Part shown: one piece after another, positions 1,501-52,134 of the stretch
Layout of the letters: each line of letters opens with the position of its first letter
Position numbering within the stretch: position 1 is the stretch's first letter
IMG/VR virus record: IMGVR_UViG_3300028025_002789
Span: 33,729 to 97,728 of that record
DNA from: a virus
DNA: 64,000 nt
Strand: one strand, 5' to 3'
Notes under the pieces: model-generated
Told to the model about the DNA's origin: nothing
Database searches by the model: none
What the model saw: only the letters and a program-made list of their open reading frames with translations
Translations under genes and position numbers: made by a program

Positions 1501-1848
1501 ATGGATATTAATAAGATCAATACTCAGGTATTAGAAGAAGAAACTAGATTAGGCATATATGTTTGGGAAATGCCTGACGGAAAGTGGATAGGCGATGACG
1601 AAGGAAATTTTCTCTCAATCACATCAACAAAAGGAAACAAATCTAGAGTTAATGCACTGGCTGATGAAGTTAGGTCATACGGTATTCTTGAAGGCAGGCC
1701 TTTATTTCTTTCTGGACGCAGGAAGATCGACGACGAAGAATACCAGTATCAACAACAAAGATTAAAGTGGGGCCTTGTCCCAGATCCTATGGATGTAGGA
1801 AACTATAAAGACGAGATGAAAGCTTTGAAAAACGGAGGAGCAAAATAA
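1501..1848 (+). CDS. Hypothetical protein upstream of portal
   Basis: 115 aa ORF coupled to portal by a TAATG overlap. Confidence 0.75.
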   Translation: MDINKINTQVLEEETRLGIYVWEMPDGKWIGDDEGNFLSITSTKGNKSRVNALADEVRSYGILEGRPLFLSGRRKIDDEEYQYQQQRLKWGLVPDPMDVGNYKDEMKALKNGGAK

Positions 1849-3431
1849 TGGAATATGTAGAAGACAACGATACATTTAGCAATGAGGTATCTATATCAAA
1901 TTCATCTGATTTATTTAGCTTTAGCCAACCAGTAGTAATTGAAACCGATCCATTTAAAATAGAAGGCGAAGATTTAAAAAAAGTAATTGGACTAAGTCCA
2001 GCATTTCGTAGAAAAGTATCTAGAGATCTACAGAAAAGCTTTACTGGAATTGAAGGAACTGGAACACAGCAGAACCTATTGCAGCAAGCAGTAACTGGCT
2101 ATGCAATGTTTGACCTTGTTCAACCAGTATACAATTTAGAATATCTTTCAAAGATATATGAAATTTCTCCATACAACTATGCAGCAATTAATGCTAAGGT
2201 TGCAAACATAGTCGGACTTGGATACTCATTTGTTGAAAGCAAAAAAGCGATGGAAGCACTAGACAATATTGAAGATGCTACACAGCTAACTCGTGCTAGA
2301 CGAAAGATGGATAGAGTCAGACAGCAGTTAGATATTTGGCTAGAGGATGTAAATCAGGAAGAAACATTTGTTGAAACTCTAGTAAAAGTATATACAGATT
2401 TAGAAGCAACAGGAAATGGCTTCATTGAAATAGGCAGAACAACTAGCGGGAACATAGGATATATTGGACATATTCCAGCAAAGACTATGCGTGTTCGTAG
2501 ACTTCGTGACGGATTTATACAGCTACTTTACGGCAAGGCAGTATTCTTTAGAAACTTTGGCGACATGGAAACAGAGAATCCAATTGCTGGTCAAGAAGAT
2601 AGACCAAATGAAATTATTCATTTGAAGAAATATACCCCTATGAATAATTACTATGGAATTCCAGATATTGTTGCATCACAAAATGCAATGGCTGGAAACG
2701 AGTTTGCTGGTAAATACAACCTAGACTACTTTGAAAACAAGGCAGTACCACGTTATATTATTACAGTAAAGGGAGCAAAGCTTTCACCAGAATCAGAAAG
2801 AAAGCTTCTTGAGTTTTTCCAGGTAGGCCTTAAGGGCAAGAACCATAGATCACTTTATGTTCCACTTCCAGCAGATTCATCTGACTCGAAGGTAGAATTT
2901 AAGATGGATCCAGTAGAGGCTAATATTCAGGACTCATCATTTAATAATTATAGAAAAGCTAACCGTGATGAAATTCTTTTATCTCATCGTGTTCCAATTA
3001 ATAAAATTGGAGTCCCAGAAGGAGTCAGCCTTGCCTCAGCGAGAGATGCCGATAAAATGTTTAAAGAGCAGGTATGTCGTCCAGCACAGGATATTCTAGA
3101 AAAGAAATTAAATAGAATTATTGCAGAAAAAACAGACATACTTATTTTGAAGTTTAATGAGCTAACCCTTACAGACGAAGACACTCAATCTAAAATTGAT
3201 GAGAGATATTTGCGTATGCAGGTTATTACCCCAAATGAGGTAAGAATCCGAAAGGGAATGATTCCAATTGACGGTGGGGATGAAGTAATTCAATTAAAGC
3301 CTCAACAGGCAGCGGAACAAACAGCCCAAGCAATGAATAGTAGAGCCCGAACTCAAGAAAGAGATTCTAACTCACCTGATATTTCAGGGGAGGCCAGAAA
3401 CCCAAAAGGTGAGGGTAGGGTCACAGCTTAA
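1848..3431 (+). CDS. Portal protein
   Basis: Motifs TGNGFIEIGR, EIIHLKKY...YYGIP, YFENKAVP, HRVP, ITPNEVR typical of HK97/PBSX-like portals; SD GGAGG. Confidence 0.93.
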   Translation: MEYVEDNDTFSNEVSISNSSDLFSFSQPVVIETDPFKIEGEDLKKVIGLSPAFRRKVSRDLQKSFTGIEGTGTQQNLLQQAVTGYAMFDLVQPVYNLEYLSKIYEISPYNYAAINAKVANIVGLGYSFVESKKAMEALDNIEDATQLTRARRKMDRVRQQLDIWLEDVNQEETFVETLVKVYTDLEATGNGFIEIGRTTSGNIGYIGHIPAKTMRVRRLRDGFIQLLYGKAVFFRNFGDMETENPIAGQEDRPNEIIHLKKYTPMNNYYGIPDIVASQNAMAGNEFAGKYNLDYFENKAVPRYIITVKGAKLSPESERKLLEFFQVGLKGKNHRSLYVPLPADSSDSKVEFKMDPVEANIQDSSFNNYRKANRDEILLSHRVPINKIGVPEGVSLASARDADKMFKEQVCRPAQDILEKKLNRIIAEKTDILILKFNELTLTDEDTQSKIDERYLRMQVITPNEVRIRKGMIPIDGGDEVIQLKPQQAAEQTAQAMNSRARTQERDSNSPDISGEARNPKGEGRVTA

Positions 3432-3450: not shown

Positions 3451-3479
3451 TTGCCTTTTTACATTTTAAAAGATAAAAT
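3451..3479 (+). promoter_or_regulatory. Promoter of protease/capsid operon, leaderless
   Basis: TTGCCT-N17-TAAAAT; ATG at 3487 is 7 nt downstream. Confidence 0.65.
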
Positions 3480-3486
3480 TAAGCAT

Positions 3487-4797
3487 ATGAATATTGAAAA
3501 ATCTTTATGGTCTTCTCATGGCGATAACATCAGCTTATCTGTCCCATTCACTAAAGTCAATCGTGAAAAAAGAACTGTTTCTGGATTCGCAACTTTAGAT
3601 AACATTGATCAAACAAATGATCTAGTAACTGCAGAAGCAAGCCTGAAAGCTTTTGAAAATTTCCGTGGCAATATCCGTGAAATGCATGGATCAAATGCTG
3701 TAGGCAAAATGCTTTCATTTAGACCAGAAACATTTTATGACCCAGCAACAAAAGAATTTTATAGCGGAGTATATGTAGATGCATATGTTTCTAAAGGCGC
3801 ACAAGATACATGGGAAAAAGTTTTAGATGGAACTCTACAGGGATTTTCAATTGGCGGGAAAATCACAGAGTCAGATAACGAAGTAAATAAGTCAACAGGT
3901 AAGACTGTAAGATTTATTAAAGGCTACGACCTACTTGAGCTTTCAATTGTAGACTCGCCAGCAAATGAATTGTGTAATATTTTATCAATTCAGAAAGCAA
4001 ACGGTTCTTTAATTTTTAAAGGTATTGCGGCAGAAGTTACTACAGAAAACATTTTTTATTGCGAAGAAAGCAAATCAGTATTCATCTCACAAGATGCATC
4101 ATATGATTCCCCTGTTACTGGTAAACCAGCAGCACTAATTGGGTGGGTAGAGTCAAACGATGTTAATAAATCAAAAGAGATAGATAAAATTCTTGATTCA
4201 TTTTTGAAGTCAAGATTACCGTTGCCTGAAAGACAAACAATTGCAAAACAGGCAAACGTAGAAGGAGGTAGTGAAGTGTCAGAAAACACAGAAACAGTAG
4301 TAGTTGAAGAAACTGCTCCAGTAGAAACACCAGTTGTTGCTGAGGAAGCACCAGCTGTTGAAGTAGCTGCAGAAGATGCAGTTGCAGACGCTTCTGCCGA
4401 AACTCTAGAAAAAGCAGCCGACGTATCAGAAGTTGAGGTTGATGAACCTGATTTTGCAAAGATGCTTGGTGATTTAAAGGGCTTTTTCTCAGAGACTCTA
4501 AATAAAGCTTCTGAGGCAAATGCAGCACAGGTTTCAACTATTAAAGAAACAGTAGAAACTTTTAGCAAGAGCGTCGATAGCAGAATTTCAGAATTGGCAG
4601 AACAACATGCCGTACTAAGCAAGGCTGTTGAAGATATCAAGGGCACAATTGATGGCGTAGAAAAGCGTGTCGATGCAGTTGAATCAGAGACTGCAATTAA
4701 GAAGTCCTCTGACCTTGGCGGGTCACAGGAAGTAACAATCAAAAAATCTAAATGGAACGGTTCTTTCCTCGGTTCCGTGAACGAATTATTTAACTAA
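3487..4797 (+). CDS. Prohead (capsid maturation) protease fused to scaffold
   Basis: N-terminal HK97/XkdF-like protease (IREMH, GFSIGG, ELSIVDSPAN), acidic linker, C-terminal coiled coil. Start moved to ATG 3487. Confidence 0.88.
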   Translation: MNIEKSLWSSHGDNISLSVPFTKVNREKRTVSGFATLDNIDQTNDLVTAEASLKAFENFRGNIREMHGSNAVGKMLSFRPETFYDPATKEFYSGVYVDAYVSKGAQDTWEKVLDGTLQGFSIGGKITESDNEVNKSTGKTVRFIKGYDLLELSIVDSPANELCNILSIQKANGSLIFKGIAAEVTTENIFYCEESKSVFISQDASYDSPVTGKPAALIGWVESNDVNKSKEIDKILDSFLKSRLPLPERQTIAKQANVEGGSEVSENTETVVVEETAPVETPVVAEEAPAVEVAAEDAVADASAETLEKAADVSEVEVDEPDFAKMLGDLKGFFSETLNKASEANAAQVSTIKETVETFSKSVDSRISELAEQHAVLSKAVEDIKGTIDGVEKRVDAVESETAIKKSSDLGGSQEVTIKKSKWNGSFLGSVNELFN

Positions 4798-4818
4798 AAA
4801 GGGTAGGTGAAACAAACA

Positions 4819-5871
4819 ATGAGCAATGAATTATTAGAAAAGACAATTGCAGCAGGTACAACTGCTACAGGTACATTCGCATCCACTACAGGTGGGTCAG
4901 GAGTACACCGTGGATCAGAAAATGGCAACGGTGGTCTATTAAATGCAGAACAATCAGCTCGCTTTTTAGACTATATGTTCGACGCAACCGTAATTGGTAA
5001 AGTCGCCCGTACAGTCCGCATGAGAGCAGACACTACAGAAATTGATCGTATGTCAGTTGGAGAGAAGCTTATGAAGCTTGCAACTGAAGGAGACGACACA
5101 GCAGCAAACAGCGCTGTTACTTTCTCAAAGATCTCTTTGACAACAAAGAAACTTCGCTTGGATTGGGAGCTTTCAACAGAGTCTCTAGAAGACAACATTG
5201 AAGGTGCTGATCTAGAAGATCACATTGCCCGCTTGATGGCAACACAGGCAGGTAATGACATTGAAGATGTAATCCTTAACGGAAATACATCTCTAACTTC
5301 AGATGCACTATACAAGTCATTTGACGGTATTGTTAAGAAGGCAAAGGCTAGCGGTCACGTTGTTGACGCAGGTGGAGCTGCAGTAAGTCGTGCTGTATTT
5401 AACAGCGCTCTTAAGGCTCTTCCACGTAAGTACAAGCAACGCCGTTCAGATCTTCGCTTCCTAGCAGGATCAAACTTGATTCAAGATTTCCTATATGCTA
5501 ACAGCATTGGAACAAACAACACAATTCCACAAGATATTGCTTCAAGCATTATCCGTGGACAAGAGGTACAACCATTAGGTGGACCTGCAGGATATGTGGC
5601 ACCATTCGCATTCGGTATTCCGATTGTTGAAGTTCCACTTCTTCCAGAAGCACAAGATGGCGATTACACAGGAGAGACTGGCAACCACGGAGACATCCAC
5701 TTGACATTCCCAAATAACGTAGTTATTGGTATCAAGCGTGACGTAACTGTTTACCGCTTCTTCTGGCCACGTAAGGACTCAATTGAGTACACAATGTATA
5801 CTCGTGTTGGTGTTCAAATCGAGCAGGCAGATGCCTGGGTCGTTGTGAAGAACGTAAAAGTAGCTTCATAA
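4819..5871 (+). CDS. Major capsid protein (HK97 fold)
   Basis: Follows scaffold; GGLLNAEQ...F, ELSTESLEDNIEG, FDGIVK, FGIPIVEVP; strong terminator after it. Confidence 0.93.
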   Translation: MSNELLEKTIAAGTTATGTFASTTGGSGVHRGSENGNGGLLNAEQSARFLDYMFDATVIGKVARTVRMRADTTEIDRMSVGEKLMKLATEGDDTAANSAVTFSKISLTTKKLRLDWELSTESLEDNIEGADLEDHIARLMATQAGNDIEDVILNGNTSLTSDALYKSFDGIVKKAKASGHVVDAGGAAVSRAVFNSALKALPRKYKQRRSDLRFLAGSNLIQDFLYANSIGTNNTIPQDIASSIIRGQEVQPLGGPAGYVAPFAFGIPIVEVPLLPEAQDGDYTGETGNHGDIHLTFPNNVVIGIKRDVTVYRFFWPRKDSIEYTMYTRVGVQIEQADAWVVVKNVKVAS

Positions 5872-40781: not shown

Positions 40782-41315
40782 ATGGAACTAGAACTAGCAG
40801 ATCATTTTGATCGAATGAATAAAGTAGTCTCAGAACTACTAAAGGGAAACAACCCAACCCAAATATCGACAATTACTGGACTACAACGCAAAGACGTAGT
40901 TGAATTGATTGATGAATGGAAACAGGTAGTTCGCAATGATAACACTGCAAGAGAACGTGCTAAGGAAGCCATCAACGGGGCAGACCAACATTATGCAATG
41001 CTTATTAAAGAAGCTTGGAAAACAGTAGAAGATGCTGATCAGGCTGGCCAATTAAATGTTAAGGCAACAGCACTAAAGTTAATTGCAGACATTGAAGGAA
41101 AAAGAATTGGAATGCTTCAAGAAGTAGGACTGTTAGATAATGCAGAAATTGCATCACAGGTAGCAGAGTCTGAAAGAAAACAAGAAGTTTTAGTAAAAAT
41201 TTTAAAAGAAGTAACAGCGCAATGTCCAAAATGTAAGATGGAAGTTGCAAAAAGATTATCTCAGATCACTGGAGTCGTTGAGTCTATCGTAATTGAGGAC
41301 GCTGGTGGATCTTAA
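40782..41315 (+). CDS. Terminase small subunit (probable)
   Basis: N-terminal HTH plus helical body, directly upstream of the large subunit. Confidence 0.7.
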   Translation: MELELADHFDRMNKVVSELLKGNNPTQISTITGLQRKDVVELIDEWKQVVRNDNTARERAKEAINGADQHYAMLIKEAWKTVEDADQAGQLNVKATALKLIADIEGKRIGMLQEVGLLDNAEIASQVAESERKQEVLVKILKEVTAQCPKCKMEVAKRLSQITGVVESIVIEDAGGS

Positions 41316-43095
41316 TTTTAATGATTTAATTGACATTCTAGATGGTGAAGAGTTTGACGAAAGGCCAGTAGATCTTAGAACTTTTGTAACAAGCCCAGAC
41401 TATTTAGGCCTGCCACCACTATCTGAATTGCAGTATGAATTAATTGAAAAAAGTTCTCAAATATATAAAGAGGCAACTTTAAAGAAACTCTTCGGAGAAG
41501 AAGAGGGTTCGATAAGATTTAAACAAACATGCAATGAAGTAATTGCACAGTTAGGCAAAGGATCTGGAAAAGATTACTGCTCAACTATATCTGTTTCATA
41601 CATTGTTTACCTTTTGTTATGCCTAAAAGATCCAGCAACATACTATGGTAAACCACCTGGAGACAGCATAGATATTCTAAACGTTGCTATAAATGCTCAG
41701 CAGGCAAGCAATGTTTTCTTTAAAGGATTTAAAACAAGAATTGAAAGATCACCATGGTTTATTGGTAAATATGAAGCTAAGGCATCTGAAGTTAAATTTG
41801 ATAAAAGCATAACAGTTCACTCAGGACACTCAGAAAGAGAGTCTTGGGAAGGATATAACGTTATCGTTGTAGTTCTAGATGAAATATCTGGATTCGCAAT
41901 TGAAAATACAACTGGCCATGATCAAGCTAAAACTGGAGAAGCTATTTATGATATGTACCGTGCATCTGTTGCATCTCGTTTCCCAGATTTTGGTAAAGTA
42001 ATATTGCTATCATTTCCTAGATTTAAAAACGACTATATACAAACACATTATGAGTCAGTAATTGCAGAAAAAGAAACTGTTATTAGAAGCATATTAATGA
42101 AGATGGATGAAGACCTTCCAGACAATACAGAGGGTAATGAAATTACTGTGGAATGGGAAGAGGATCATATTAAGTCTTATCTCTATCCTAAAACATATGC
42201 AATTAAGAGACCAACCTGGGACATAAACCCAACTAAAAAAATAGAAGATTTTAAGGTAGACTTTTATAGAAACTCGTTAGATGCTCTTGGAAGATTTGCA
42301 TGTATGCCACCAGAAGCTGTTGATGCATTCTTTAAGTCTAGAGAAAAAATAGAAAAAGCTTTTTATAAAATGAATATTGCTGTGGATCAGTTTGGAAGAT
42401 TAGAAGAATGGTTTCAGCCAGAAAAAGACAAAGAGTATTTCATACACGTCGACCTTGCACAAAAGCATGACCATTGTGCTGTTGCATTGGCACACGTAAA
42501 CCATTGGGTAAATGTAAAAGTAACAAGTGACTACTCTCAGCCAGCGCCAATAGTTGAAGTGGACGCAGTAAGATTTTGGACTCCAACTGCTGATAAGTCT
42601 GTAGACTTTACAGAAGTTAAGGATTATATTCTTTCATTAAAAACTCGTGGATTCAATATTAAGGTTTGTACATTCGATAGATGGAATTCTCATGACATGA
42701 TGCAGCAGCTAAAACAATATGGAATCAATACTGAGTTGCTTTCTGTTGCTAAAAGACATTACGATGATATGGCAATGATAGTTGCAGAAGAAAGAGTTTC
42801 TGGCCCAGCAATTAAATTATTGATTGATGAACTATTACAATTAAGAATTATGAGAGATAAGGTAGACCACCCAAGAAAGGGATCTAAAGACCTTGCAGAT
42901 GCGGTATGCGGAGCAATATTTAACTCTATTAGTAGAACTAAACAAGAAAATGACAAAGAAATTAAAATTCATACCTACGAATCAATGAGCTACGACAATG
43001 ATTCTGATGATGAAGAGACGGTATTGAATATGATAAGGGCACCTAAAATGCCTTCGGAATTGAAAGACGCAATGGATAGGATGATGATAATATGA
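41305..43095 (+). CDS. Terminase large subunit
   Basis: GKGSGKD, VVLDE, nuclease HVDLA...D, FDRWNS, KDLADA; GTG start behind GAGGA. Confidence 0.92.
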   Translation: MDLNFNDLIDILDGEEFDERPVDLRTFVTSPDYLGLPPLSELQYELIEKSSQIYKEATLKKLFGEEEGSIRFKQTCNEVIAQLGKGSGKDYCSTISVSYIVYLLLCLKDPATYYGKPPGDSIDILNVAINAQQASNVFFKGFKTRIERSPWFIGKYEAKASEVKFDKSITVHSGHSERESWEGYNVIVVVLDEISGFAIENTTGHDQAKTGEAIYDMYRASVASRFPDFGKVILLSFPRFKNDYIQTHYESVIAEKETVIRSILMKMDEDLPDNTEGNEITVEWEEDHIKSYLYPKTYAIKRPTWDINPTKKIEDFKVDFYRNSLDALGRFACMPPEAVDAFFKSREKIEKAFYKMNIAVDQFGRLEEWFQPEKDKEYFIHVDLAQKHDHCAVALAHVNHWVNVKVTSDYSQPAPIVEVDAVRFWTPTADKSVDFTEVKDYILSLKTRGFNIKVCTFDRWNSHDMMQQLKQYGINTELLSVAKRHYDDMAMIVAEERVSGPAIKLLIDELLQLRIMRDKVDHPRKGSKDLADAVCGAIFNSISRTKQENDKEIKIHTYESMSYDNDSDDEETVLNMIRAPKMPSELKDAMDRMMII

Positions 43096-43731: not shown

Positions 43732-43789
43732 TTAGGATGCCCCATGGGGGTCCTAAATTAACTTATTCGCTTGAAAGGGGAATAAAATG
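43732..43789 (+). promoter_or_regulatory. ROSE-like RNA thermometer in hsp20 5' UTR
   Basis: Two hairpins; the second pairs UUAUUCGCUU with AGGGGAAUAA (SD) leaving a bulged G; -10 TATAAT at 43722-43727. Confidence 0.65.
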
Positions 43790-44212
43790 GTACAAACATA
43801 TACATGGGATCTTTTTAAAGATCCATTTTTTATTGGCTTTAATCGTGAACTAGATAGACTTACAAGAGTTCACAGCCACGCATCAAACTCAACATACCCA
43901 CCATACAATGTAATCAAAACAGACAACGAGGATACATTTTTAATCGAAGTTGCTGTGGCGGGCTTTGCCAAGGAAGACCTTGGAATCACAATAAAGGATC
44001 AGACTCTTACCGTAAAGGGTGAGATTCAAGATATTTCTGATGAAACAAAGTTCGTGCATAAGGGTATTGCAGCTCGTAAATTCACAAGAGAGTTTGCTCT
44101 CGGAGAATATATTGAGGTTACTGGTGCTGAGGTATTAAATGGCATGCTTACAATTAAATTAGAGCGTGTTATTCCTGAAGAGGAAAAGCCAAAAACCATC
44201 AAGATCAAATAA
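43787..44212 (+). CDS. Small heat shock protein Hsp20 (IbpA-like)
   Basis: YPPYNV, AVAGF, HKGIA.RKF.R.F.L, NGMLTI.L....PEE.KP..I.I. Confidence 0.95.
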   Translation: MVQTYTWDLFKDPFFIGFNRELDRLTRVHSHASNSTYPPYNVIKTDNEDTFLIEVAVAGFAKEDLGITIKDQTLTVKGEIQDISDETKFVHKGIAARKFTREFALGEYIEVTGAEVLNGMLTIKLERVIPEEEKPKTIKIK

Positions 44213-44328: not shown

Positions 44329-44736
44329 ATGTTTGAATACTATGTTAAAAAGGTTACAAAAGTTGTGGACGGAGACACAATAGATGTTGACATAGACCTA
44401 GGTTTCGACATTTCATTTAGCTCAAGAGTCAGACTTGCTGGAATAGATACTCCAGAAAGTAGAACAGCTGATAAGATAGAAAAAGCTCTTGGCCTTGAAG
44501 CAAAATCTTATTTAAAGAATGCAATTGATTCTGCAAAATCTGTTGTTATTAAAACAGAAAAAATGGATAGTTCAGAAAAGTATGGAAGAATTTTAGGATG
44601 GGTATTTTTAGACGGATCAAGCGTTTCTATCAATCAAAAAATGATTGATGACGGACATGCTTGGGGATACATGGGGGAAACTAAGGTTAAAGATTTTACA
44701 GCCTTAGCAGAGAAGAGAAAAAAGAGCGGTAAGTAA
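44329..44736 (+). CDS. Thermonuclease (SNase-like)
   Basis: VVDGDT, VRLAGIDTPE, KYGRIL, G.A..Y. Confidence 0.9.
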   Translation: MFEYYVKKVTKVVDGDTIDVDIDLGFDISFSSRVRLAGIDTPESRTADKIEKALGLEAKSYLKNAIDSAKSVVIKTEKMDSSEKYGRILGWVFLDGSSVSINQKMIDDGHAWGYMGETKVKDFTALAEKRKKSGK

Positions 44737-45003: not shown

Positions 45004-47475
45004 TTGACTAGAAAAGCTAAACTTTTATTATTCAGCCTGATTGTATTGGGCTGGCTATCATTTTCTGTACCAGATTATGCTAATGCAACTGGAGACGGAA
45101 GTCAGGAACAGGTAGTAGTAAGTCCAGCACAACAGGCGGTAAACTCAGCTCTTGGAACAGCTACTACAGAAGTACAGCAAGCCATAAATGCAACTGAAAA
45201 TTCTGCAACTGAAATAACACAGGCTCAAACAGAATTATCTCAAGCTCAGGCTGCAGTATCAGGATTATCATCAGCAGTATCTACAGCACAAACAAGTGTT
45301 AATAATGTTCAAAGTGCTATTAATAATATTAACGGTGTTGATTTAACAGTAACTCCAGTAGATCAAAGTTCTCAATTAGTACAAGATGCTAAGGCAACTG
45401 TAATTAATGCTCAAACAGCAATTAATAATATTAATACAACTACTGCCCAAACAGAAATTTCTCAAACAACTACAGCAAGATCAGAAGCGGTTACTGCTCA
45501 AGCAACCGCACAAACAGAATTAACTCAAGCAAACATTGCTATTGATGCTGCTCAAACTGCAGTAAATAATTTACAGTCAACTATTGGAACAACCGTCAAC
45601 GTTTTGGCTGGAGTAGACGATGCTGGTGTTCAAATGAATCTTCCATTTGGAATGCAAATGGGTGGAACTGTTTATAATAATGTATTTGTCGGATCAAATG
45701 CAACAATAACATTTGGAAGTAATGAGGGGAATGTATATTGGGATACACCAGGAGCACCTTCTATATCTATTGCTGGCTGGGACTGGACTACTTGGAGCAC
45801 AGGAACTGGAATTACATATTCAACTACTGGAACAAGCCTAGATGTTGCTTGGGACTTAAGACCTTATCCACAACAGGATGCTTCTACACAAATGGTTCAA
45901 ATTAGATTTAATGCTGATGTTAATCCAAATGACGGAGCATGGATGGCAAACGTAACCGCAGTTGGACCAATACCAGGCGGAGCAAGATTTAATTATAGAG
46001 AAACAACAAATGGCGCTATCACACCAATTACAGATACTAATACTGGTACTGGATTTGCTGGACAAATAAGTCAGGGGTCAACATTTACTCCATATGTAAA
46101 TCCAAATACTTCAGCAGTTCAGGCTGCCGTAGATGCAGCAAATGCAACTATTACTCAACTTAATCAAAGTCTTTCTCCAGTTGTTGCTCAAAATGCATTA
46201 AATAATTCTGCAATAAATGCTATCAATACAACATCACTGACCAATACAGTTAACTCTGCAATATCAACAAAGAATGCTTTGCAAACAACATTAAATACAA
46301 GGTCATCTCAGTTAACTACTGCTATTAATAATAATATTCCAACTCCAGCACCAATAATTGGCGAAGCGGAAATTAATGGAACTTCAATATCTATTCCAGT
46401 GAGTATGCCAGAAGGATATTCTGCTGGAACTTGGTACTATCAAGTTGAATTAGTTGGAGTTTCTGCTTCTAATCCATATGTAGTCGGAACAAGTATTGCA
46501 ACTGGATCGTCTGAATTGATTGAGCTAGAAGGATTAACTGAAGGTGCAACATATACAATTAGTATAGCGAATTCAAGTGGTGCAGTTAGTGCGTATACAT
46601 CTACAACAGTATCTATACCTGCATCACAAAGTTCAAACTTAACTGGTGGAGGAATATCAGAGCCACCCGCAGAAGAGCCACCAGCAGAAGAACCACCTGC
46701 AGAAGAACCACCAGCAGAAGAACCACCTGCAGAAGAACCACCAGCAGAAGAACCACCTGCAGAAGAACCACCTGCAGAAGAACCACCTGCAGAAGAACCA
46801 CCTGCTGAAGAACCACCTGCAGAAGAACCACCTGCAGAAGAACCACCTGCTGAAGAACCACCTGCTGAAGAACCACCTGCTGAAGAAATGTCGGTAGAAG
46901 AAATAGTTGAAGTGGTTGAAAATCTTATTGCAGACGGAAACCTAACAGCATCAGATGCAGAAGCTGTACTTGAATCTTTATCTGCAGACGGTGAAATTAC
47001 TTCTGAAGAAGTAAATAATTTATCAGATGCATTAACTGAAGACGGTACATTCACACTAGCAGAAAAAGAATTAGTTGCAGATGCACTAGTAGAGTCATCG
47101 GAAGGCGCTCCAATTGCAGCAGCAGACATTGCTGCTGCGGGACTTGAATATCGTGATCTTCCACCACAAATTCCAGTAGAAGTTAGAGAAGATGCTAACG
47201 GTAATCCAGTAGTTATTACAGCCGAAGTTGCATCAGCATTATTAACATTAGAATCTCCAGCAGCACTTGTTAACGCAATTGCTGGATGCTTTAATCCAGA
47301 AGAAGCAATTGAAGGATTAACAGAAGAACAAAAGTGTGAATTGGGCAAAGCTTTAGCAAATATTGGTGCTGACATGAGCCCAGAAGAAAGACAAGACGCT
47401 AAAGAAATTTTAGTGGCAGCAATTTTAGTTGGCCAAGTAATCCTTGGTAGTTCAATTCTGAGAATAAGGGGGTAA
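45004..47475 (+). CDS. Large exported, membrane-anchored protein
   Basis: Signal peptide, A/Q/T coiled coil, NIDO-like DD....LPF.....G..YN.V.V.SN..ITFG module, FN3-like module, (EPPAE)15 stalk, acidic domain, C-terminal hydrophobic segment. Confidence 0.75.
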   Translation: MTRKAKLLLFSLIVLGWLSFSVPDYANATGDGSQEQVVVSPAQQAVNSALGTATTEVQQAINATENSATEITQAQTELSQAQAAVSGLSSAVSTAQTSVNNVQSAINNINGVDLTVTPVDQSSQLVQDAKATVINAQTAINNINTTTAQTEISQTTTARSEAVTAQATAQTELTQANIAIDAAQTAVNNLQSTIGTTVNVLAGVDDAGVQMNLPFGMQMGGTVYNNVFVGSNATITFGSNEGNVYWDTPGAPSISIAGWDWTTWSTGTGITYSTTGTSLDVAWDLRPYPQQDASTQMVQIRFNADVNPNDGAWMANVTAVGPIPGGARFNYRETTNGAITPITDTNTGTGFAGQISQGSTFTPYVNPNTSAVQAAVDAANATITQLNQSLSPVVAQNALNNSAINAINTTSLTNTVNSAISTKNALQTTLNTRSSQLTTAINNNIPTPAPIIGEAEINGTSISIPVSMPEGYSAGTWYYQVELVGVSASNPYVVGTSIATGSSELIELEGLTEGATYTISIANSSGAVSAYTSTTVSIPASQSSNLTGGGISEPPAEEPPAEEPPAEEPPAEEPPAEEPPAEEPPAEEPPAEEPPAEEPPAEEPPAEEPPAEEPPAEEPPAEEPPAEEMSVEEIVEVVENLIADGNLTASDAEAVLESLSADGEITSEEVNNLSDALTEDGTFTLAEKELVADALVESSEGAPIAAADIAAAGLEYRDLPPQIPVEVREDANGNPVVITAEVASALLTLESPAALVNAIAGCFNPEEAIEGLTEEQKCELGKALANIGADMSPEERQDAKEILVAAILVGQVILGSSILRIRG
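46660..46884 (+). repeat. 15 x 15-bp coding tandem repeat (EPPAE)
   Basis: GARCCACCNGCWGAA x15, varying only at synonymous positions. Confidence 0.95.
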
Positions 47476-48326: not shown

Positions 48327-48905
48327 GTGGCAGATCAAGGTACCGCAGCACGTTTAATTGAAGTTGCTACAGCAGAAATTGGGACTATTGAAGGTCCAAA
48401 AGATAACGAAACAAAATACGGAGCTTACACAAAAGCTAACTTTCAACCATGGTGTGGAAGTTTTGTAAACTGGTGTGGCAATGAAGCAGGAGTAAAAATT
48501 CCAAATACGGTCTATACTCCAGCTGGTGTAACAGCATTTAAGAAAGCTGGCGCCTGGATTGATGGAGATATTGCAGATCCAGAACCAGGAGATATTGCCT
48601 ATTTTGATTTCCCTTCAGATGGCGTCGATAGGGTGTCTCACGTAGGTATTGTTATTAAAGACAATGAAGATGGAACAGTTTGGTGTATAGAAGGAAATAC
48701 TTCTTCAAAGAAATCAGGAAGCCAAAGAAACGGCGGAGAAGTATGTAAACAACTTCGTGCTTTCAAAAAAAATAAGGCTGGGGTAATGATTTCAATTGTA
48801 GGATTTGGTCGTCCTAAGTTTGGATCTACTGGAAAACCATCAACAACAAAAGCAACATCTTCTAAAAAGAAAACATGCGGAAGTTGCGGTCAAGAAATTA
48901 AGTAA
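48327..48905 (+). CDS. CHAP-domain endolysin
   Basis: PWCGSFV.W, PGDI, HVGIV, IEGNT, GFGRP. Confidence 0.88.
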   Translation: MADQGTAARLIEVATAEIGTIEGPKDNETKYGAYTKANFQPWCGSFVNWCGNEAGVKIPNTVYTPAGVTAFKKAGAWIDGDIADPEPGDIAYFDFPSDGVDRVSHVGIVIKDNEDGTVWCIEGNTSSKKSGSQRNGGEVCKQLRAFKKNKAGVMISIVGFGRPKFGSTGKPSTTKATSSKKKTCGSCGQEIK

Positions 48906-49049
48906 ATGAATAACTATAGAATTAAAATAGAGGTAGATGCTGAAGTTCAAGCATTTAGCGAAAATGATGCTGTAGATTATGTAAATGATATTTTTGGTAT
49001 AGACGAAGAAATTAAAAACATTAAAGTAGTTAGCGTTAAGGAGAAATAG
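48906..49049 (+). CDS. Hypothetical protein, 47 aa (not in ORF track)
   Basis: MNNYRIKIEVDAEVQAFSENDAVDYV...; fills the gap exactly. Confidence 0.7.
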   Translation: MNNYRIKIEVDAEVQAFSENDAVDYVNDIFGIDEEIKNIKVVSVKEK

Positions 49050-49050
49050 A

Positions 49051-49857
49051 ATGGCAAAAGAAGGATACAAGCCGACATCAGGTATGCAGTCAGCAGCTCG
49101 CCGTGCTATTAAATTAAAAGAGCAAGGTAAAGCCAAAGGTGCAGGAACAGTAGTTGGATGGACTCGTGCAGGACAATTAGCTAGAGGAGAAACTCTTAGC
49201 CTATCAACCGTAAAGCGTATGTATTCATACTTTTCTCGTCATGAAGTAGACAAAAAAGGTAAAGACTGGGATAACTCAGAAAACCCTTCAAACGGAAAGA
49301 TCATGTGGTTAGCATGGGGCGGAGATGCAGGCTTCTCTTGGTCTCGTAAAATAGTAGAGAGAGAGAAAAATATGAAAAAATCAATTATAACAAATGAGTT
49401 AGTAGAAGAAATTAAAGATATTTTAGATGATGTAGTTAATCCAACAGATACAGTGGTTGAAATTCCAGACGATGAAAGCATTACAAAAGCCTTGCGTCCT
49501 GAAATTACAAAAGAACAATTAGGTATGGTTATAGAGCATTTAATGGAAGCAATTGAAGGTATGATCGAAGTTCCAGAAGAGGAAGATTCAGAAGAAGAGA
49601 CAATGGCTCCAGAATCAACAGACTCTACAGAAATTGAAGATGTTTTAAAATCAGAAGATTATCAGTCAGATAACGAAGATGAAGATAAATGGGATAATCT
49701 TACAAAAGCCTGCTGGTCAGGATATAAACAAGAAGGAATGAAAGAAAAGGGTGGAAGAATGGTACCAAATTGCGTACCAGTTGAAAAAGCTCATGAAATG
49801 ACAGAGACAAAAGAAGAAATGAAAAAGTCCATATGGGATGGCACATTTATTAAATAA
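49051..49857 (+). CDS. Probable internal head/prohead-associated protein
   Basis: Basic N-terminal domain (G..RA.QL...LS..TVKRM.SYF.RH...W..WGGDAG), CW.GY...G.K.K.G..VPNCVP motif, scaffold-like C-terminus. Confidence 0.6.
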   Translation: MAKEGYKPTSGMQSAARRAIKLKEQGKAKGAGTVVGWTRAGQLARGETLSLSTVKRMYSYFSRHEVDKKGKDWDNSENPSNGKIMWLAWGGDAGFSWSRKIVEREKNMKKSIITNELVEEIKDILDDVVNPTDTVVEIPDDESITKALRPEITKEQLGMVIEHLMEAIEGMIEVPEEEDSEEETMAPESTDSTEIEDVLKSEDYQSDNEDEDKWDNLTKACWSGYKQEGMKEKGGRMVPNCVPVEKAHEMTETKEEMKKSIWDGTFIK

Positions 49858-49861
49858 CCTA

Positions 49862-49920
49862 TTGACAAGGCCGCAGTATTTCGTGTATAATAATACATAG
49901 GGATGCTGCGGTTTTACTTT
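49862..49920 (+). terminator. Terminator hairpin overlapping the next promoter
   Basis: CCGCAGTATTTC...GGGATGCTGCGG then TTTT (G-U rich stem), overlapping TTGACA-N18-TATAAT. Confidence 0.65.
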
Positions 49921-49930
49921 TAAGGATAAA

Positions 49931-50164
49931 GTGTTACATTTAAACCCGCTAGGTGTAGAAGTTTTTATAGATAGAACAAGATCAAACAATATAGACCCAC
50001 ACTGGGATAACTATGATTTAGTTGTCTGGAAAAAAGATAGCTCTGGATTTTCTCATATAAAGGGAATGTTTAGAAAAAACAATTGGGGCATTGCTGAAAA
50101 GTTTTCAGTAACTAAAAACGGTACCTGGGTTCTTCCCAAAAAATATGTCAGATATTTTAAATAG
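49931..50164 (+). CDS. Hypothetical protein
   Basis: GTG start, SD AAGGA. Confidence 0.7.
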   Translation: MLHLNPLGVEVFIDRTRSNNIDPHWDNYDLVVWKKDSSGFSHIKGMFRKNNWGIAEKFSVTKNGTWVLPKKYVRYFK

Positions 50165-50456
50165 TCTTGGCGTAGACCACGAAGATTTTGATTGGTGGCA
50201 CCTATCAATATGTAATGGAATGGATACGAATCTATTCTATGAAAAATATGAAATGGATGTCAACATTGCAAAAAATATTGATGAGGCATGCCTGTCATGT
50301 CCAGTAATTAATATTTGTTATCAGTCTGGTGTAGATAATAATGAGTATGGTGTATGGGGTGGAGTATATTTAAACTCAGGATCCATAGATAAAACAAGAA
50401 ATTTACACAAAACTCCTGATGTCTGGAAGAGGTTAAAAAAGAAAAATGTTTATTGA
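50145..50456 (+). CDS. whiB: WhiB-family Fe-S transcription factor
   Basis: C...D..LF...C..CPV...C...GVWGG. Confidence 0.9.
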   Translation: MSDILNSLGVDHEDFDWWHLSICNGMDTNLFYEKYEMDVNIAKNIDEACLSCPVINICYQSGVDNNEYGVWGGVYLNSGSIDKTRNLHKTPDVWKRLKKKNVY

Positions 50457-51564: not shown

Positions 51565-52134
51565 ATGACCTGTATTGTTGCTTTAGTCCATGAAAATAAG
51601 GTGTTGCTTGGCGGAGACGCATCAGCATCTGATGAAAAGTCTGGTTTAATTTTCCAAAGAAACGATCCAAAGGTTTTTAAAGTTGGTCAATTTGGGATAG
51701 GATTTGTTGACAGTTTTAGAATGGGACAAATACTACAATATAACTGGACACCACCATTATACAAAGCAACTGCAGGATTTAAAAATTTAGATAAGTTTAT
51801 GCGTACTAAGTTTATTGAATCTATTAAAGAAACATTTCAAGAGCATGGGTACGGAAAGTTTGGGTCAAGCGCACCAGAGGATGGCGATGAAGGCGGAGTA
51901 TTTATAATCACGGTTCAAGGCTCTGGAAGAATATTTGTAATGGATACAGACTTCCATATTGGAGAAGCAGACGTTGCTTTCATGGCAGAAGGAAGTGGAC
52001 AACAGCTAGCTCTTGGATCACTATACTCTACTGGATTAATTAAAACTCCTCGTAAGCGTGTTAGAATGGCTCTAGAGGCAGCAGCTAAATTTAATATGGC
52101 CGTAAGAGGCCCCTTTACAATCATAGAGGTTTAG
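51565..52134 (+). CDS. Proteasome-beta/HslV-like Ntn hydrolase (paralog 1)
   Basis: N-terminal (M)TCIVAL, GD, PKVF, A.GSG...ALGSL. Confidence 0.8.
   Translation: MTCIVALVHENKVLLGGDASASDEKSGLIFQRNDPKVFKVGQFGIGFVDSFRMGQILQYNWTPPLYKATAGFKNLDKFMRTKFIESIKETFQEHGYGKFGSSAPEDGDEGGVFIITVQGSGRIFVMDTDFHIGEADVAFMAEGSGQQLALGSLYSTGLIKTPRKRVRMALEAAAKFNMAVRGPFTIIEV

What the first reader, a model, noticed from the sequence alone, without database searches (positions are those of the whole stretch)
49051..49857. Possible capsid cargo-loading code: an unlinked protein ends in the scaffold's C-terminal motif and carries the same K-A/S sites
Seen: the protease-scaffold ends ...IKKSKWNGSFLG (4741-4767). This gene, 45 kb away, ends ...MKKSIWDGTFIK (49822-49848), giving KKSxW[ND]G[ST]F. 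I saw this motif in no other protein here. Both proteins are punctuated by hydrophobic-x-K-[AS]: scaffold IEKS, IQKA, VNKS, LEKA, LNKA, FSKS, LSKA, IKKS; this protein MKKS, ITKA, LKS, LTKA, VEKA, MKKS. Portal (LQKS) and capsid (LEKT) have one near their N-termini. Known: scaffold C-termini bind the capsid interior, and HK97-type proteases can cut after Lys. Inference: the peptide is a portable encapsidation tag, analogous to an encapsulin cargo-loading peptide. The maturation protease would release a basic domain of about 107 aa and a CWxGY...VPNCVP peptide inside the head.
Basis: partly seen in the sequence, partly recalled or inferred. Interest (0 to 1): 0.78.

Follow-up and report, generated by a model that had tools for sequence, protein, structure and literature searches.

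The report
Scaffold-like capsid-loading tag on phage protein
A 268-residue protein of an uncultured freshwater actinobacterial phage ends in the same short peptide as the phage's own head scaffold and carries the same repeated predicted cutting sites, so it is probably pulled into the assembling head and trimmed there; packaging itself has not been measured.

Summary
KKSxW[ND]G[ST]F occurs only twice in six frames of the 97.7-kb genome: near the C-terminus of the S78 protease-scaffold (4741-4767) and of the 268-aa protein (49822-49848).

- **Chance:** unlikely. The best 9-mer score is 36, against a genome-wide null maximum of 24.6±2.9.
- **Conservation:** 79 of 79 protease homologues and 68 of 80 homologues of the 268-aa protein in IMG/VR carry the peptide.
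- **Portability:** in the 268-aa family the peptide stays at the very end while the modules in front of it change.
- **Second link:** hydrophobic-x-K-[AS] is strongly enriched only in these two proteins among 147 crude genes (z 6.8 and 5.8). It is also enriched in divergent tagged relatives and conserved at the capsid protein's N-terminus (35 of 36).
- **Cargo domain:** the N-terminal domain is a virus-only five-helix fold. Elsewhere it is fused to prohead proteases, portals, MuF or capsid proteins.

Best reading (confidence about 0.6): a disordered C-terminal docking peptide that mimics the scaffold tail, preceded by a protease site. Cleavage would release a basic domain. This is a new variant of known capsid-targeting systems. 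Co-variation could not be tested, and there are no proteomic data. The scan found T4-type N-terminal tags before on other DNA, but not this C-terminal kind.

The parts
49051..49857 (+). Gene for the 268-aa tagged protein (candidate head cargo)
   Evidence: ORF. phrog_2859 covers residues 6-107. 80 IMG/VR homologues at 62-82% identity.
49051..49380 (+). N-terminal domain, residues 1-110: five-helix, basic (pI 10.2, net charge +11.6), virus-only
   Evidence: AF2 pLDDT 91.9. No PDB relative. 4003 representatives at E<=1e-3. Fused elsewhere to S78, capsid, MuF and portal domains. Charge.
49381..49707 (+). Acidic linker, residues 111-219 (net charge about -31), with predicted sites MKK|S 110/111, ITK|A 146/147, VLK|S 200/201 and LTK|A 219/220
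   Evidence: Fragment charges. Disorder at 130-150 and 175-206. Site conservation 64/67, 61/67, 1/67 and 49/67.
49708..49788 (+). CWSGY...VPNCVP module, residues 220-246: predicted beta-hairpin, followed by VEK|A
   Evidence: Strands 225-233 and 236-243, pLDDT 76-79. Hits to phrog_9737, 4359, 727 and others. Present in 253 phage records, mostly T4-like cyanophages.
49822..49854 (+). C-terminal tag KKSIWDGTFIK (residues 258-268): predicted cut site MKK|S followed by the WxGxF docking peptide
   Evidence: Conserved in 68/80 homologues. Disordered tail, pLDDT 44-48.
3451..4797 (+). Prohead protease (S78) fused to an acidic scaffold region, 448 aa
   Evidence: Pfam Peptidase_S78 27 bits (cut-off 21) and S78_2 24.1 bits (cut-off 24). 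phrog_9427 E 1e-127. About 45% identity to capsid maturation proteases of Streptomyces phages such as NootNoot and Coruscant.
4741..4797 (+). Scaffold C-terminal tail KKSKWNGSFLGSVNELFN*, carrying the shared motif (4741-4767)
   Evidence: SKWNGSF or a one-residue variant in 79/79 homologues. Coruscant ends KKSDSKWGGHFLMNTSDIR. The 431-440 block is among the most conserved in the protein, 0.98 identity.
4807..5871 (+). Major capsid protein (HK97 fold) with the N-terminal site LEK|T at 4834-4845
   Evidence: Pfam Phage_capsid 30.6 bits (cut-off 24.2). MSNE-x-phi-x-K-[AST] in 35/36 relatives.
48327..49049 (+). CHAP endolysin (48327-48905) and a 47-aa ORF (48906-49049) packed directly upstream of the cargo gene
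   Evidence: Pfam CHAP. Endolysin PHROGs. The stop of the 47-aa ORF lies 1 nt before the cargo ATG.
49862..49891 (+). Perfect sigma-70-type promoter match (TTGACA-18-TATAAT) just after the cargo stop. It marks the start of the WhiB-containing unit.
   Evidence: 12/12 consensus match. This is a consensus match only.

Best explanation
The last 9-11 residues of the 268-aa protein ([VIM]-x-K-S-x-W-x-G-x-F) are a short disordered docking peptide that copies the conserved C-terminal tail of the phage's protease-scaffold.

Proposed sequence of events (inferred):
- The gene appears to be the last gene of the lysis/late unit, so the protein is made late.
- The peptide binds the same site inside the assembling procapsid as the scaffold tail. 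That site is most likely on the HK97-fold capsid protein.
- The protein is therefore co-assembled into the head without being fused to a head protein.
- The S78 protease then cuts after Lys in hydrophobic-x-K|[A/S] sites.
- This detaches the anchor (KK|SIWDGTFIK) and removes the strongly acidic linker pieces, as it does with the scaffold.
- It frees a basic five-helix domain (residues 1-110, pI 10.2) and the small CWxGY..PNCVP hairpin inside the head. These probably stay with the DNA and may enter the host with it.

Shown here: the motif identity, its uniqueness, its conservation, its modular C-terminal position, the disorder of the tail, the site enrichment, and the head association of the N-domain in other phages.

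Inferred, not shown: binding to the capsid, encapsidation, the cleavage positions and the fate of the fragments.
For: 1. The motif is unique to these two proteins in the genome. In four near-complete relatives it occurs only in the protease and this protein, apart from one opposite-strand match taken as chance. A fifth relative, whose protein is the tag-less variant, has it only in the protease.
2. The tail similarity exceeds every one of 200 genome-wide shuffles. The DNA differs at synonymous sites.
3. The tag is conserved in 79/79 protease-scaffolds and 68/80 homologues of this protein.
4. It is an island of conservation behind a variable spacer of 0-17 aa.
5. The tag stays terminal behind different module sets: with or without DUF5872; with an Hva1_TUDOR plus Cys-rich region (L173); after an IPENW module (P0200, P0203); N-domain plus tag only (P0167, 144 aa); and with no N-domain at all (L220, 121 aa).
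6. An exact-pattern scan of 2.9 million viral contigs gave 68 hits. 67 belong to this family.
7. Hydrophobic-x-K-[AS] is enriched only in these two proteins. The sites are conserved. The motif is also enriched in divergent tagged proteins: P0231 z 5.6, P0261 z 6.9, P0128 z 4.3. It is conserved at the capsid protein's N-terminus in 35/36 relatives.
8. The predicted sites fall between modelled modules and in disordered stretches. The natural N-domain-less variant starts next to predicted site 146/147.
9. The N-domain is fused in other phages to S78 protease-capsid polyproteins (Roseobacter CRP-811, S-CBS1), to XkdF- or DUF2213-like proteases, to MuF and to portals. The ten tagged proteins tested carry none of these anchor domains.
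10. There are precedents for each step. The T4 and P1 capsid-targeting sequences are described in PMC9024508. The 80alpha scaffold and SaPI1 CpmB share a C-terminal capsid-binding motif (PMC5644958). A segment of the HK97 gp4 protease loads GFP into capsids (PMC11626933).
Against: - There is no proteomic, structural or genetic evidence that the protein is in procapsids or virions, or that the protease cuts at these sites.
- The scaffold tag is nearly invariant (SKWNGSF in 76/79), while the cargo tag varies (WNGTF, WDGTF, WGGTF, WSGTF, WAGSF...). No co-variation can therefore be shown.
- 10 of 80 homologues carry another C-terminal module instead of the tag, and 2 have a degenerate end, while their phages keep the scaffold tag.
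- In Vibrio phage 1.123.O the N-domain stands alone (108 aa) with no tag resembling its scaffold's end. The domain may therefore not always need an anchor.
- K-S-x-W also occurs at the protease's N-terminus (IEKSLW, 69/69 homologues). Part of the motif may simply be a preferred cleavage context.
- Streptomyces phage Coruscant has the scaffold tag but no second tagged protein.
Confidence: 0.6

Rival explanations
1. The protein is brought in by the tag but is an assembly factor, not a delivered cargo. It would act as an auxiliary internal scaffold or core protein: a helix, an acidic linker and a scaffold-like C-terminal anchor. This is comparable to SaPI1 CpmB, which copies the 80alpha scaffold tail. 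It would be degraded and expelled like the scaffold.
For: - The whole protein is acidic (pI 4.8), like the scaffold (pI 4.7).
- The minimal natural variant (L220, 121 aa) keeps only the helix, the acidic linker, the hairpin and the tag.
- CpmB is a precedent for a small helical protein with the scaffold's C-terminal motif (PMC5644958).
- The protein carries as many predicted cut sites as a scaffold.
Against: - The best conserved part is the basic N-domain (0.9-1.0 identity). This domain is widespread and is fused to effector-type domains (ART, Zeta toxin, Dps, ParB, HAD) as well as to head proteins.
- Streptomyces relatives with the same protease-scaffold assemble without such a protein.
Confidence: 0.2
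2. The shared peptide is only an especially good recognition or cleavage site of the maturation protease (hydrophobic-x-K|S-x-W), not an anchor. Some other part of the protein, for example the N-domain itself, takes it to the head.
For: - The same K-S-x-W context occurs at the protease's N-terminus (IEKSLW, 69/69; Coruscant IEKASW).
- Stand-alone or tag-less N-domain proteins exist in other phages and in 10/80 relatives.
Against: - The G-x-F half is equally conserved (W262, G264 and F266 are nearly invariant).
- None of the other roughly 15 predicted sites has it.
- The peptide is always within 1-10 residues of the C-terminus in both families, which a mere cut site need not be.
- The tag persists in the variant without an N-domain.
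Confidence: 0.12
3. The motif serves a partner unrelated to the capsid, such as a host chaperone, a degradation signal or the portal/terminase. Alternatively it is a convergent or chance resemblance with no common function.
For: No direct interaction data exist. The motif is short, with 6 identical and 2 similar residues out of 9.
Against: - Chance is excluded by the shuffles and by conservation across about 150 homologues.
- The only two carriers are the scaffold and a protein built from head-associated modules.
- Both carriers also share the predicted protease-site enrichment.
Confidence: 0.08

Closest known systems
Capsid targeting sequences of phage T4 internal proteins (IPI-III, Alt) and of P1 DarB
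   Same: A short terminal peptide directs otherwise unrelated proteins into the prohead. In T4 the head protease then removes it, leaving basic proteins with the DNA (described in PMC9024508).
   Different: - Those tags are N-terminal. This one is C-terminal.
- T4 uses an S77 protease that cuts after Glu and an internal core. Here the protease is S78 (HK97 type), fused to the scaffold, with predicted cuts after Lys.
- Here the tag copies the scaffold's own tail and marks one protein family only.
80alpha scaffolding protein and SaPI1 CpmB: shared C-terminal RIIK helix-and-hook
   Same: A second, unlinked protein carries the scaffold's C-terminal capsid-binding motif and binds the capsid protein in the same way (PMC5644958).
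   Different: - The motif sequence is different (RIIK against KSxWxGxF).
- CpmB belongs to a satellite and redirects capsid size. Here the carrier is the phage's own conserved gene and has a folded basic domain.
- No structure or genetics exist here.
C-terminal capsid-targeting region of the HK97 gp4 maturation protease
   Same: HK97-type shell and S78-type protease. A segment of the protease suffices to load GFP into capsids (PMC11626933, citing Woods 2023; the Duda 2013 paper is known to me by title only and is not held).
   Different: In HK97 the signal is known only on the protease itself and in engineered fusions. A natural second protein carrying it has not, to my knowledge, been described.
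Encapsulin cargo-loading peptides
   Same: A short, disordered C-terminal peptide on a cargo protein binds the interior of an HK97-fold shell.
   Different: - Encapsulins have no scaffold, portal, protease or DNA.
- Their peptide consensus is unrelated.
- Cargo genes lie next to the shell gene, whereas this gene is 45 kb away.
- The peptide is not cleaved off.
Head-packaged polyvalent and MuF- or portal-fused proteins (Iyer et al. 2017, PMC5512222)
   Same: The same N-domain occurs in proteins fused to MuF, portal, protease and capsid domains. The paper reads MuF and portal fusions as a sign of packaging and injection.
   Different: This protein has no covalent anchor domain. A 9-residue peptide takes that place.

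Membership tests
T4-type capsid targeting sequence (CTS) | Tag at the N-terminus of the cargo | tested here: not met
   The tag is at the C-terminus, residues 258-268 of 268.
T4-type capsid targeting sequence (CTS) | Tag bounded by the cleavage motif of the phage's own head protease | tested here: inconclusive
   MKK|S directly precedes the WxGxF peptide and fits the enriched, conserved hydrophobic-x-K-[AS] motif. The protease's specificity has not been measured.
T4-type capsid targeting sequence (CTS) | S77 (gp21-type) protease | tested here: not met
   The protease matches Pfam Peptidase_S78 and S78_2 above their cut-offs.
T4-type capsid targeting sequence (CTS) | Tag sufficient to load a foreign protein into proheads | not testable with these tools
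   This needs an expression and packaging experiment.
Scaffold C-terminal capsid-binding motif shared with a second protein (80alpha SP / SaPI1 CpmB type) | Homologous motif within the last ~16-20 residues of both the scaffold and the second protein | tested here: met
   KKSKWNGSF lies 9 aa from the scaffold's end. KKSIWDGTF lies 2 aa from the other protein's end. The motif is conserved in 79/79 and 68/80 homologues.
Scaffold C-terminal capsid-binding motif shared with a second protein (80alpha SP / SaPI1 CpmB type) | Both tails contact the capsid protein at the same site | not testable with these tools
   No complex prediction or cryo-EM is available.
Scaffold C-terminal capsid-binding motif shared with a second protein (80alpha SP / SaPI1 CpmB type) | RIIK helix-and-hook sequence | tested here: not met
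   The sequence is KSxWxGxF. The tail is modelled as disordered.
Encapsulin cargo-loading peptide | Short disordered C-terminal peptide on the cargo, and an HK97-fold shell | tested here: met
   Tail pLDDT is 44-48. The capsid protein matches Pfam Phage_capsid.
Encapsulin cargo-loading peptide | Cargo gene adjacent to the shell gene, and a shell without portal, scaffold or protease | tested here: not met
   The gene is 45 kb from the capsid gene. Portal, protease-scaffold and terminase are all present.
Caudovirus prohead serine protease S78 (for the scaffold-bearing partner) | Match to the family profile above the curated threshold | tested here: met
   PF04586 27.0 bits against cut-off 21. 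PF14550 24.1 bits against cut-off 24. phrog_9427 E 1e-127.
Head-packaged polyvalent / MuF-fusion proteins | Covalent fusion to MuF, portal, protease or capsid domain | tested here: not met
   No such Pfam domain is found in this protein or in 10 tagged relatives. The N-domain does occur in such fusions in other phages.

The most novel reading that the evidence does not exclude
A tailed phage with an HK97-type head naturally uses a portable, cleavable C-terminal peptide, copied from its scaffold's tail, to load an unlinked protein into the capsid. This would be a viral counterpart of the encapsulin cargo-loading peptide. The peptide can be moved between different module sets, and it would give a ready-made 9-11-residue handle for loading proteins into HK97-like capsids.
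Probability: 0.5. Interest if true: 0.72.

Novelty: new variant of a known kind. Interest (0 to 1): 0.6.

Why it matters
**Mechanism.** Loading proteins into phage heads is well understood only for T4-like phages, which use N-terminal tags, and for covalent fusions to MuF, portal or protease. If this peptide works as proposed, HK97-type phages with a protease-scaffold fusion can also recruit free proteins, by imitating the scaffold tail. That would link phage scaffolds, satellite 'pirate' scaffolds and encapsulin loading peptides in one mechanism.

**Testability.** The proposal gives a minimal, testable tag, and a predicted protease specificity (cut after Lys in hydrophobic-x-K|A/S) for a large group of actinobacterial phages.

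**The cargo domain.** It also points to a function in the head for a very large virus-only domain family that is absent from Pfam (about 4000 representatives at 50% identity) and has no known fold relative.

Tried and rejected
- **Co-variation of the two tags.** This was not possible. The scaffold tag is SKWNGSF in 76 of 79 relatives. The more divergent tagged lineage was found only on fragments without head genes: L171-L173 gave no protease match.
- **A second tagged protein in Streptomyces phage Coruscant.** The only other S.W.G.F match is internal to a minor tail protein, so I took it as chance.
- **Other tagged cargos.** None was found in the genome, in five near-complete relatives or in the flanks of 160 loci. 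One opposite-strand match in G001 was not followed up and is taken as chance.
- **Fold of the N-domain.** Foldseek against the PDB gave a best E of 1.9. VIA-align gave a best Z of 4.8 to generic helical bundles. No function can be read from the fold.
- **The portal site LQKS.** It is not conserved.
- **The 823-aa upstream protein as a MuF-like head protein.** It has only a weak PHROG hit and an extensin-like Pro-rich region. I did not use it.
- **Duda et al. 2013 (HK97 protease encapsidation).** The paper is not held.
- **Actinomycetia phage DSL-LC01.** It is a metagenome assembly of another type with no proteomics.

Full report
**What is there**

The window is part of a single 97,728-bp, 37% G+C virus record. 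It encodes:
- a portal (1848-3431);
- an S78 prohead protease fused to an acidic scaffold region (3451-4797);
- an HK97-fold capsid protein (4807-5871).

The protease-scaffold is about 45% identical to the capsid maturation proteases of 127 large Streptomyces phages such as NootNoot and Coruscant. A WhiB-like gene lies at 50145-50456, and there are hundreds of relatives in IMG/VR viral contigs. WhiB-like genes are treated as a marker of actinophages in PMC10202952. The host is therefore probably an actinobacterium, likely a freshwater one.

The gene in question (49051-49857) follows a holin-like gene, a CHAP endolysin and a 47-aa ORF with no gaps. A perfect TTGACA-18-TATAAT match begins 5 nt after its stop. 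It therefore looks like the last gene of the lysis/late unit. This is an inference.

The protease-scaffold ends IKKSKWNGSFLGSVNELFN. The 268-aa protein ends MKKSIWDGTFIK.
- In six frames of the whole genome, KKSxW[ND]G[ST]F and even S.W.G.F occur only in these two ORFs.
- I compared the scaffold's last 25 residues with the last 25 of every other crude gene. This gene scores 36 for the best 9-mer, and the next best scores 26.
- With shuffled proteins the genome-wide maximum is 24.6±2.9 and never reaches 36 in 200 trials.
- The coding DNA differs at synonymous positions.

**Conservation and portability**

- All 79 full-length protease-scaffold homologues fetched from IMG/VR carry SKWNGSF, or SKWDGSF or SRWNGSF, 9 residues from the end.
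- Coruscant ends KKSDSKWGGHFLMNTSDIR.
- Of 80 homologues of the 268-aa protein (62-82% identical), 63 have S-x-W-x-G-x-F and 5 have a relaxed form within the last 16 residues.
- Along that family, identity to the window is 0.9-1.0 in the N-domain and 0.17-0.34 in the acidic linker. It is 0.8-0.9 in the CWxGY..PNCVP module, 0.36-0.59 in the spacer, and rises again in the tag.

The tag stays terminal while the parts before it change:
- the spacer is 0-17 residues long;
- a DUF5872 module is inserted in about 15 relatives;
- an Hva1_TUDOR plus Cys-rich region replaces the middle in L173 and P0261;
- an IPENW-type module precedes the tag in P0200 and P0203;
- P0167 is only the N-domain plus the tag, 144 aa;
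- L220 has no N-domain at all. It is 121 aa, lies in the same gene order, and starts beside predicted site 146/147.

An exact-pattern scan of IMG/VR for S-x-W-[ND]-G-x-F-hydrophobic-K-stop gave 68 hits. 67 are in this family. In four near-complete relatives the motif is found only in the protease and this protein, apart from one opposite-strand match in G001 that I took as chance. A fifth relative, with the tag-less variant, has it only in the protease. So the 'code' has two members, not a list of cargos.

**A second, independent link**

I counted hydrophobic-x-K-[AS] in 147 crude genes and compared each count with within-protein shuffles.
- The protease-scaffold has 11 against 1.95 expected (z 6.8).
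- This protein has 6 against 0.89 expected (z 5.8).
- No other gene exceeds z 3.1.

However, it is also enriched in divergent tagged relatives whose non-N-domain sequence is unrelated: P0231 8 against 1.45, P0261 12 against 2.15, P0128 5 against 0.89 and P0200 5 against 1.19.

Most sites are conserved in their families: scaffold positions 15, 145, 238, 319, 350, 371, 416 and 430, and cargo positions 108, 144, 217, 244 and 257. The capsid protein's N-terminus reads MSNE-x-hydrophobic-x-K-[AST] in 35 of 36 relatives.

The tag itself begins with such a site ([VIM]-x-K|S). Cutting there would detach a 9-residue anchor from the cargo and a 16-residue one from the scaffold.

**Structure and charge**

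- AlphaFold2 models residues 1-110 as a five-helix domain (pLDDT 91.9).
- In the full-length model, 130-150 and 175-206 are disordered and 225-243 forms a beta-hairpin.
- The tail from residue 247 to about 264 is below pLDDT 50, and the last two ten-residue blocks average 44 and 48. The tag therefore behaves as a linear motif.
- Cutting at the predicted sites would give a basic fragment 1-110 (pI 10.2, +11.6), acidic pieces 111-219 (about -31 in total) and a mildly basic hairpin peptide 220-246.

**What the cargo domain is**

- The N-domain has 4003 representatives at E<=1e-3 in the 50%-identity library.
- It has no Pfam model and no convincing PDB relative.
- It is almost exclusively viral.

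In other phages it is covalently joined to head proteins:
- At the N-terminus of protease-capsid polyproteins. Roseobacter phage CRP-811 has an 816-aa protein with the N-domain, Hva1_TUDOR, S78 and Phage_capsid. S-CBS1 gp04 is another example.
- At the N-terminus of XkdF- or DUF2213-like proteases (Limnohabitans phage DC31, Vibrio phage 1.122.A).
- Joined to MuF, portal and Mu gp29 domains.
- Joined to effector-type domains: ART, Zeta toxin, Dps, ParB and HAD.

Iyer et al. (PMC5512222) read MuF and portal fusions as a sign of packaging into the head and injection. The ten tagged proteins tested have none of these anchor domains. The IPENW-type module that replaces the tag in 10 of 80 relatives is itself found inside capsid maturation proteases and a portal of other actinophages.

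**Reading**

The simplest account is that the peptide is a capsid-interior docking signal borrowed from the scaffold, with a protease site in front of it.

Precedents exist for each element:
- T4 and P1 N-terminal capsid-targeting sequences (PMC9024508);
- the C-terminal RIIK motif shared by the 80alpha scaffold and SaPI1 CpmB, which binds the capsid protein identically (PMC5644958);
- a segment of the HK97 protease that loads GFP (PMC11626933);
- encapsulin loading peptides (my own knowledge).

The combination appears new to me: C-terminal, scaffold-mimicking, cleavable, on the phage's own unlinked protein, in an S78/HK97-type system. It is a variant of a known principle.

**Limits**

- Nothing here shows binding, packaging or cleavage.
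- Co-variation could not be tested.
- Some relatives do without the tag.
- A stand-alone N-domain with no scaffold-like tail exists in Vibrio phage 1.123.O.
- K-S-x-W also occurs at the protease's N-terminus.
- Whether the protein is a delivered cargo, a DNA-associated internal protein or an auxiliary scaffold remains open.

Earlier notes of this scan describe T4-type N-terminal tags in several other phages. One unchecked note (e1-5977905) describes a WGGDAG-containing polyprotein joined at x-K-A sites in another genome, which agrees with the site motif seen here.

Noticed in passing
window 49862-49891 (+): Perfect sigma-70 consensus match (TTGACA, 18 nt, TATAAT) 5 nt after the cargo stop. It lies upstream of a 77-aa ORF and the WhiB-like gene (50145-50456) and probably starts a separate transcription unit.
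   Followed up: partly
L220 6358-6723 (IMGVR_UViG_3300008267_000009); also L186, L189, L225: In some relatives the syntenic gene lacks the N-domain. It is a 121-aa protein starting MEKGLRPE, next to the window protein's predicted ITK|A site. It keeps the helix, acidic linker, CWxGY hairpin and tag.
   Followed up: partly
L004, L005, L026, L029, L036, L042, L045, L047, L048, L069 (C-terminal ~85 aa): Ten relatives replace the tag with a module (..MPDGSYPI..GRGG..IPENWK) that begins VKKSLF. The same module sits inside capsid maturation proteases of Gordonia, Microbacterium and other actinophages, and in a portal protein.
   Followed up: partly
window 49708-49788 (residues 220-246): The 25-aa CWxGY..G.K..G..VPNCVP hairpin module recurs in 253 phage records. 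Most are hypothetical proteins of T4-like cyanophages (S-RIM2, S-PM2, P-SSM2 and others). Its function is unknown. Its two Cys residues could form a disulfide or half of a metal site.
   Followed up: partly
window 49051-49380: The N-domain family is very large (4003 representatives at 50% identity), virus-only, and absent from Pfam. It has a confidently predicted five-helix fold with no PDB relative. Invariant residues include R39, R63, H64, D67, K68 and W89-G90-G91-D92.
   Followed up: yes
window 3451-3504: The protease ORF may really start at M13 (MNIEKSLW), as the Coruscant protein starts MKIEKASW. The conserved IEKS-x-W there resembles the first half of the tag.
   Followed up: no
window 41293-43095: The large terminase gene lies about 38 kb downstream of the portal, protease and capsid genes. 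It sits next to Hsp20 (43787-44212) and a staphylococcal-nuclease-like gene (44329-44736).
   Followed up: no
window 45004-47475: An 823-aa protein has an extensin-like Pro-rich region and tandemly repeated DNA (about 46756-46838). It has only a weak 'minor head protein' PHROG hit.
   Followed up: no
window 51565-52134: An HslV-family peptidase-like gene (phrog_1040, E 9e-15) lies downstream of the WhiB unit. The syntenic locus L173 also has it.
   Followed up: no
In relatives the residue after hydrophobic-x-K is R in 27, A in 5 and S in 2.
   Followed up: yes
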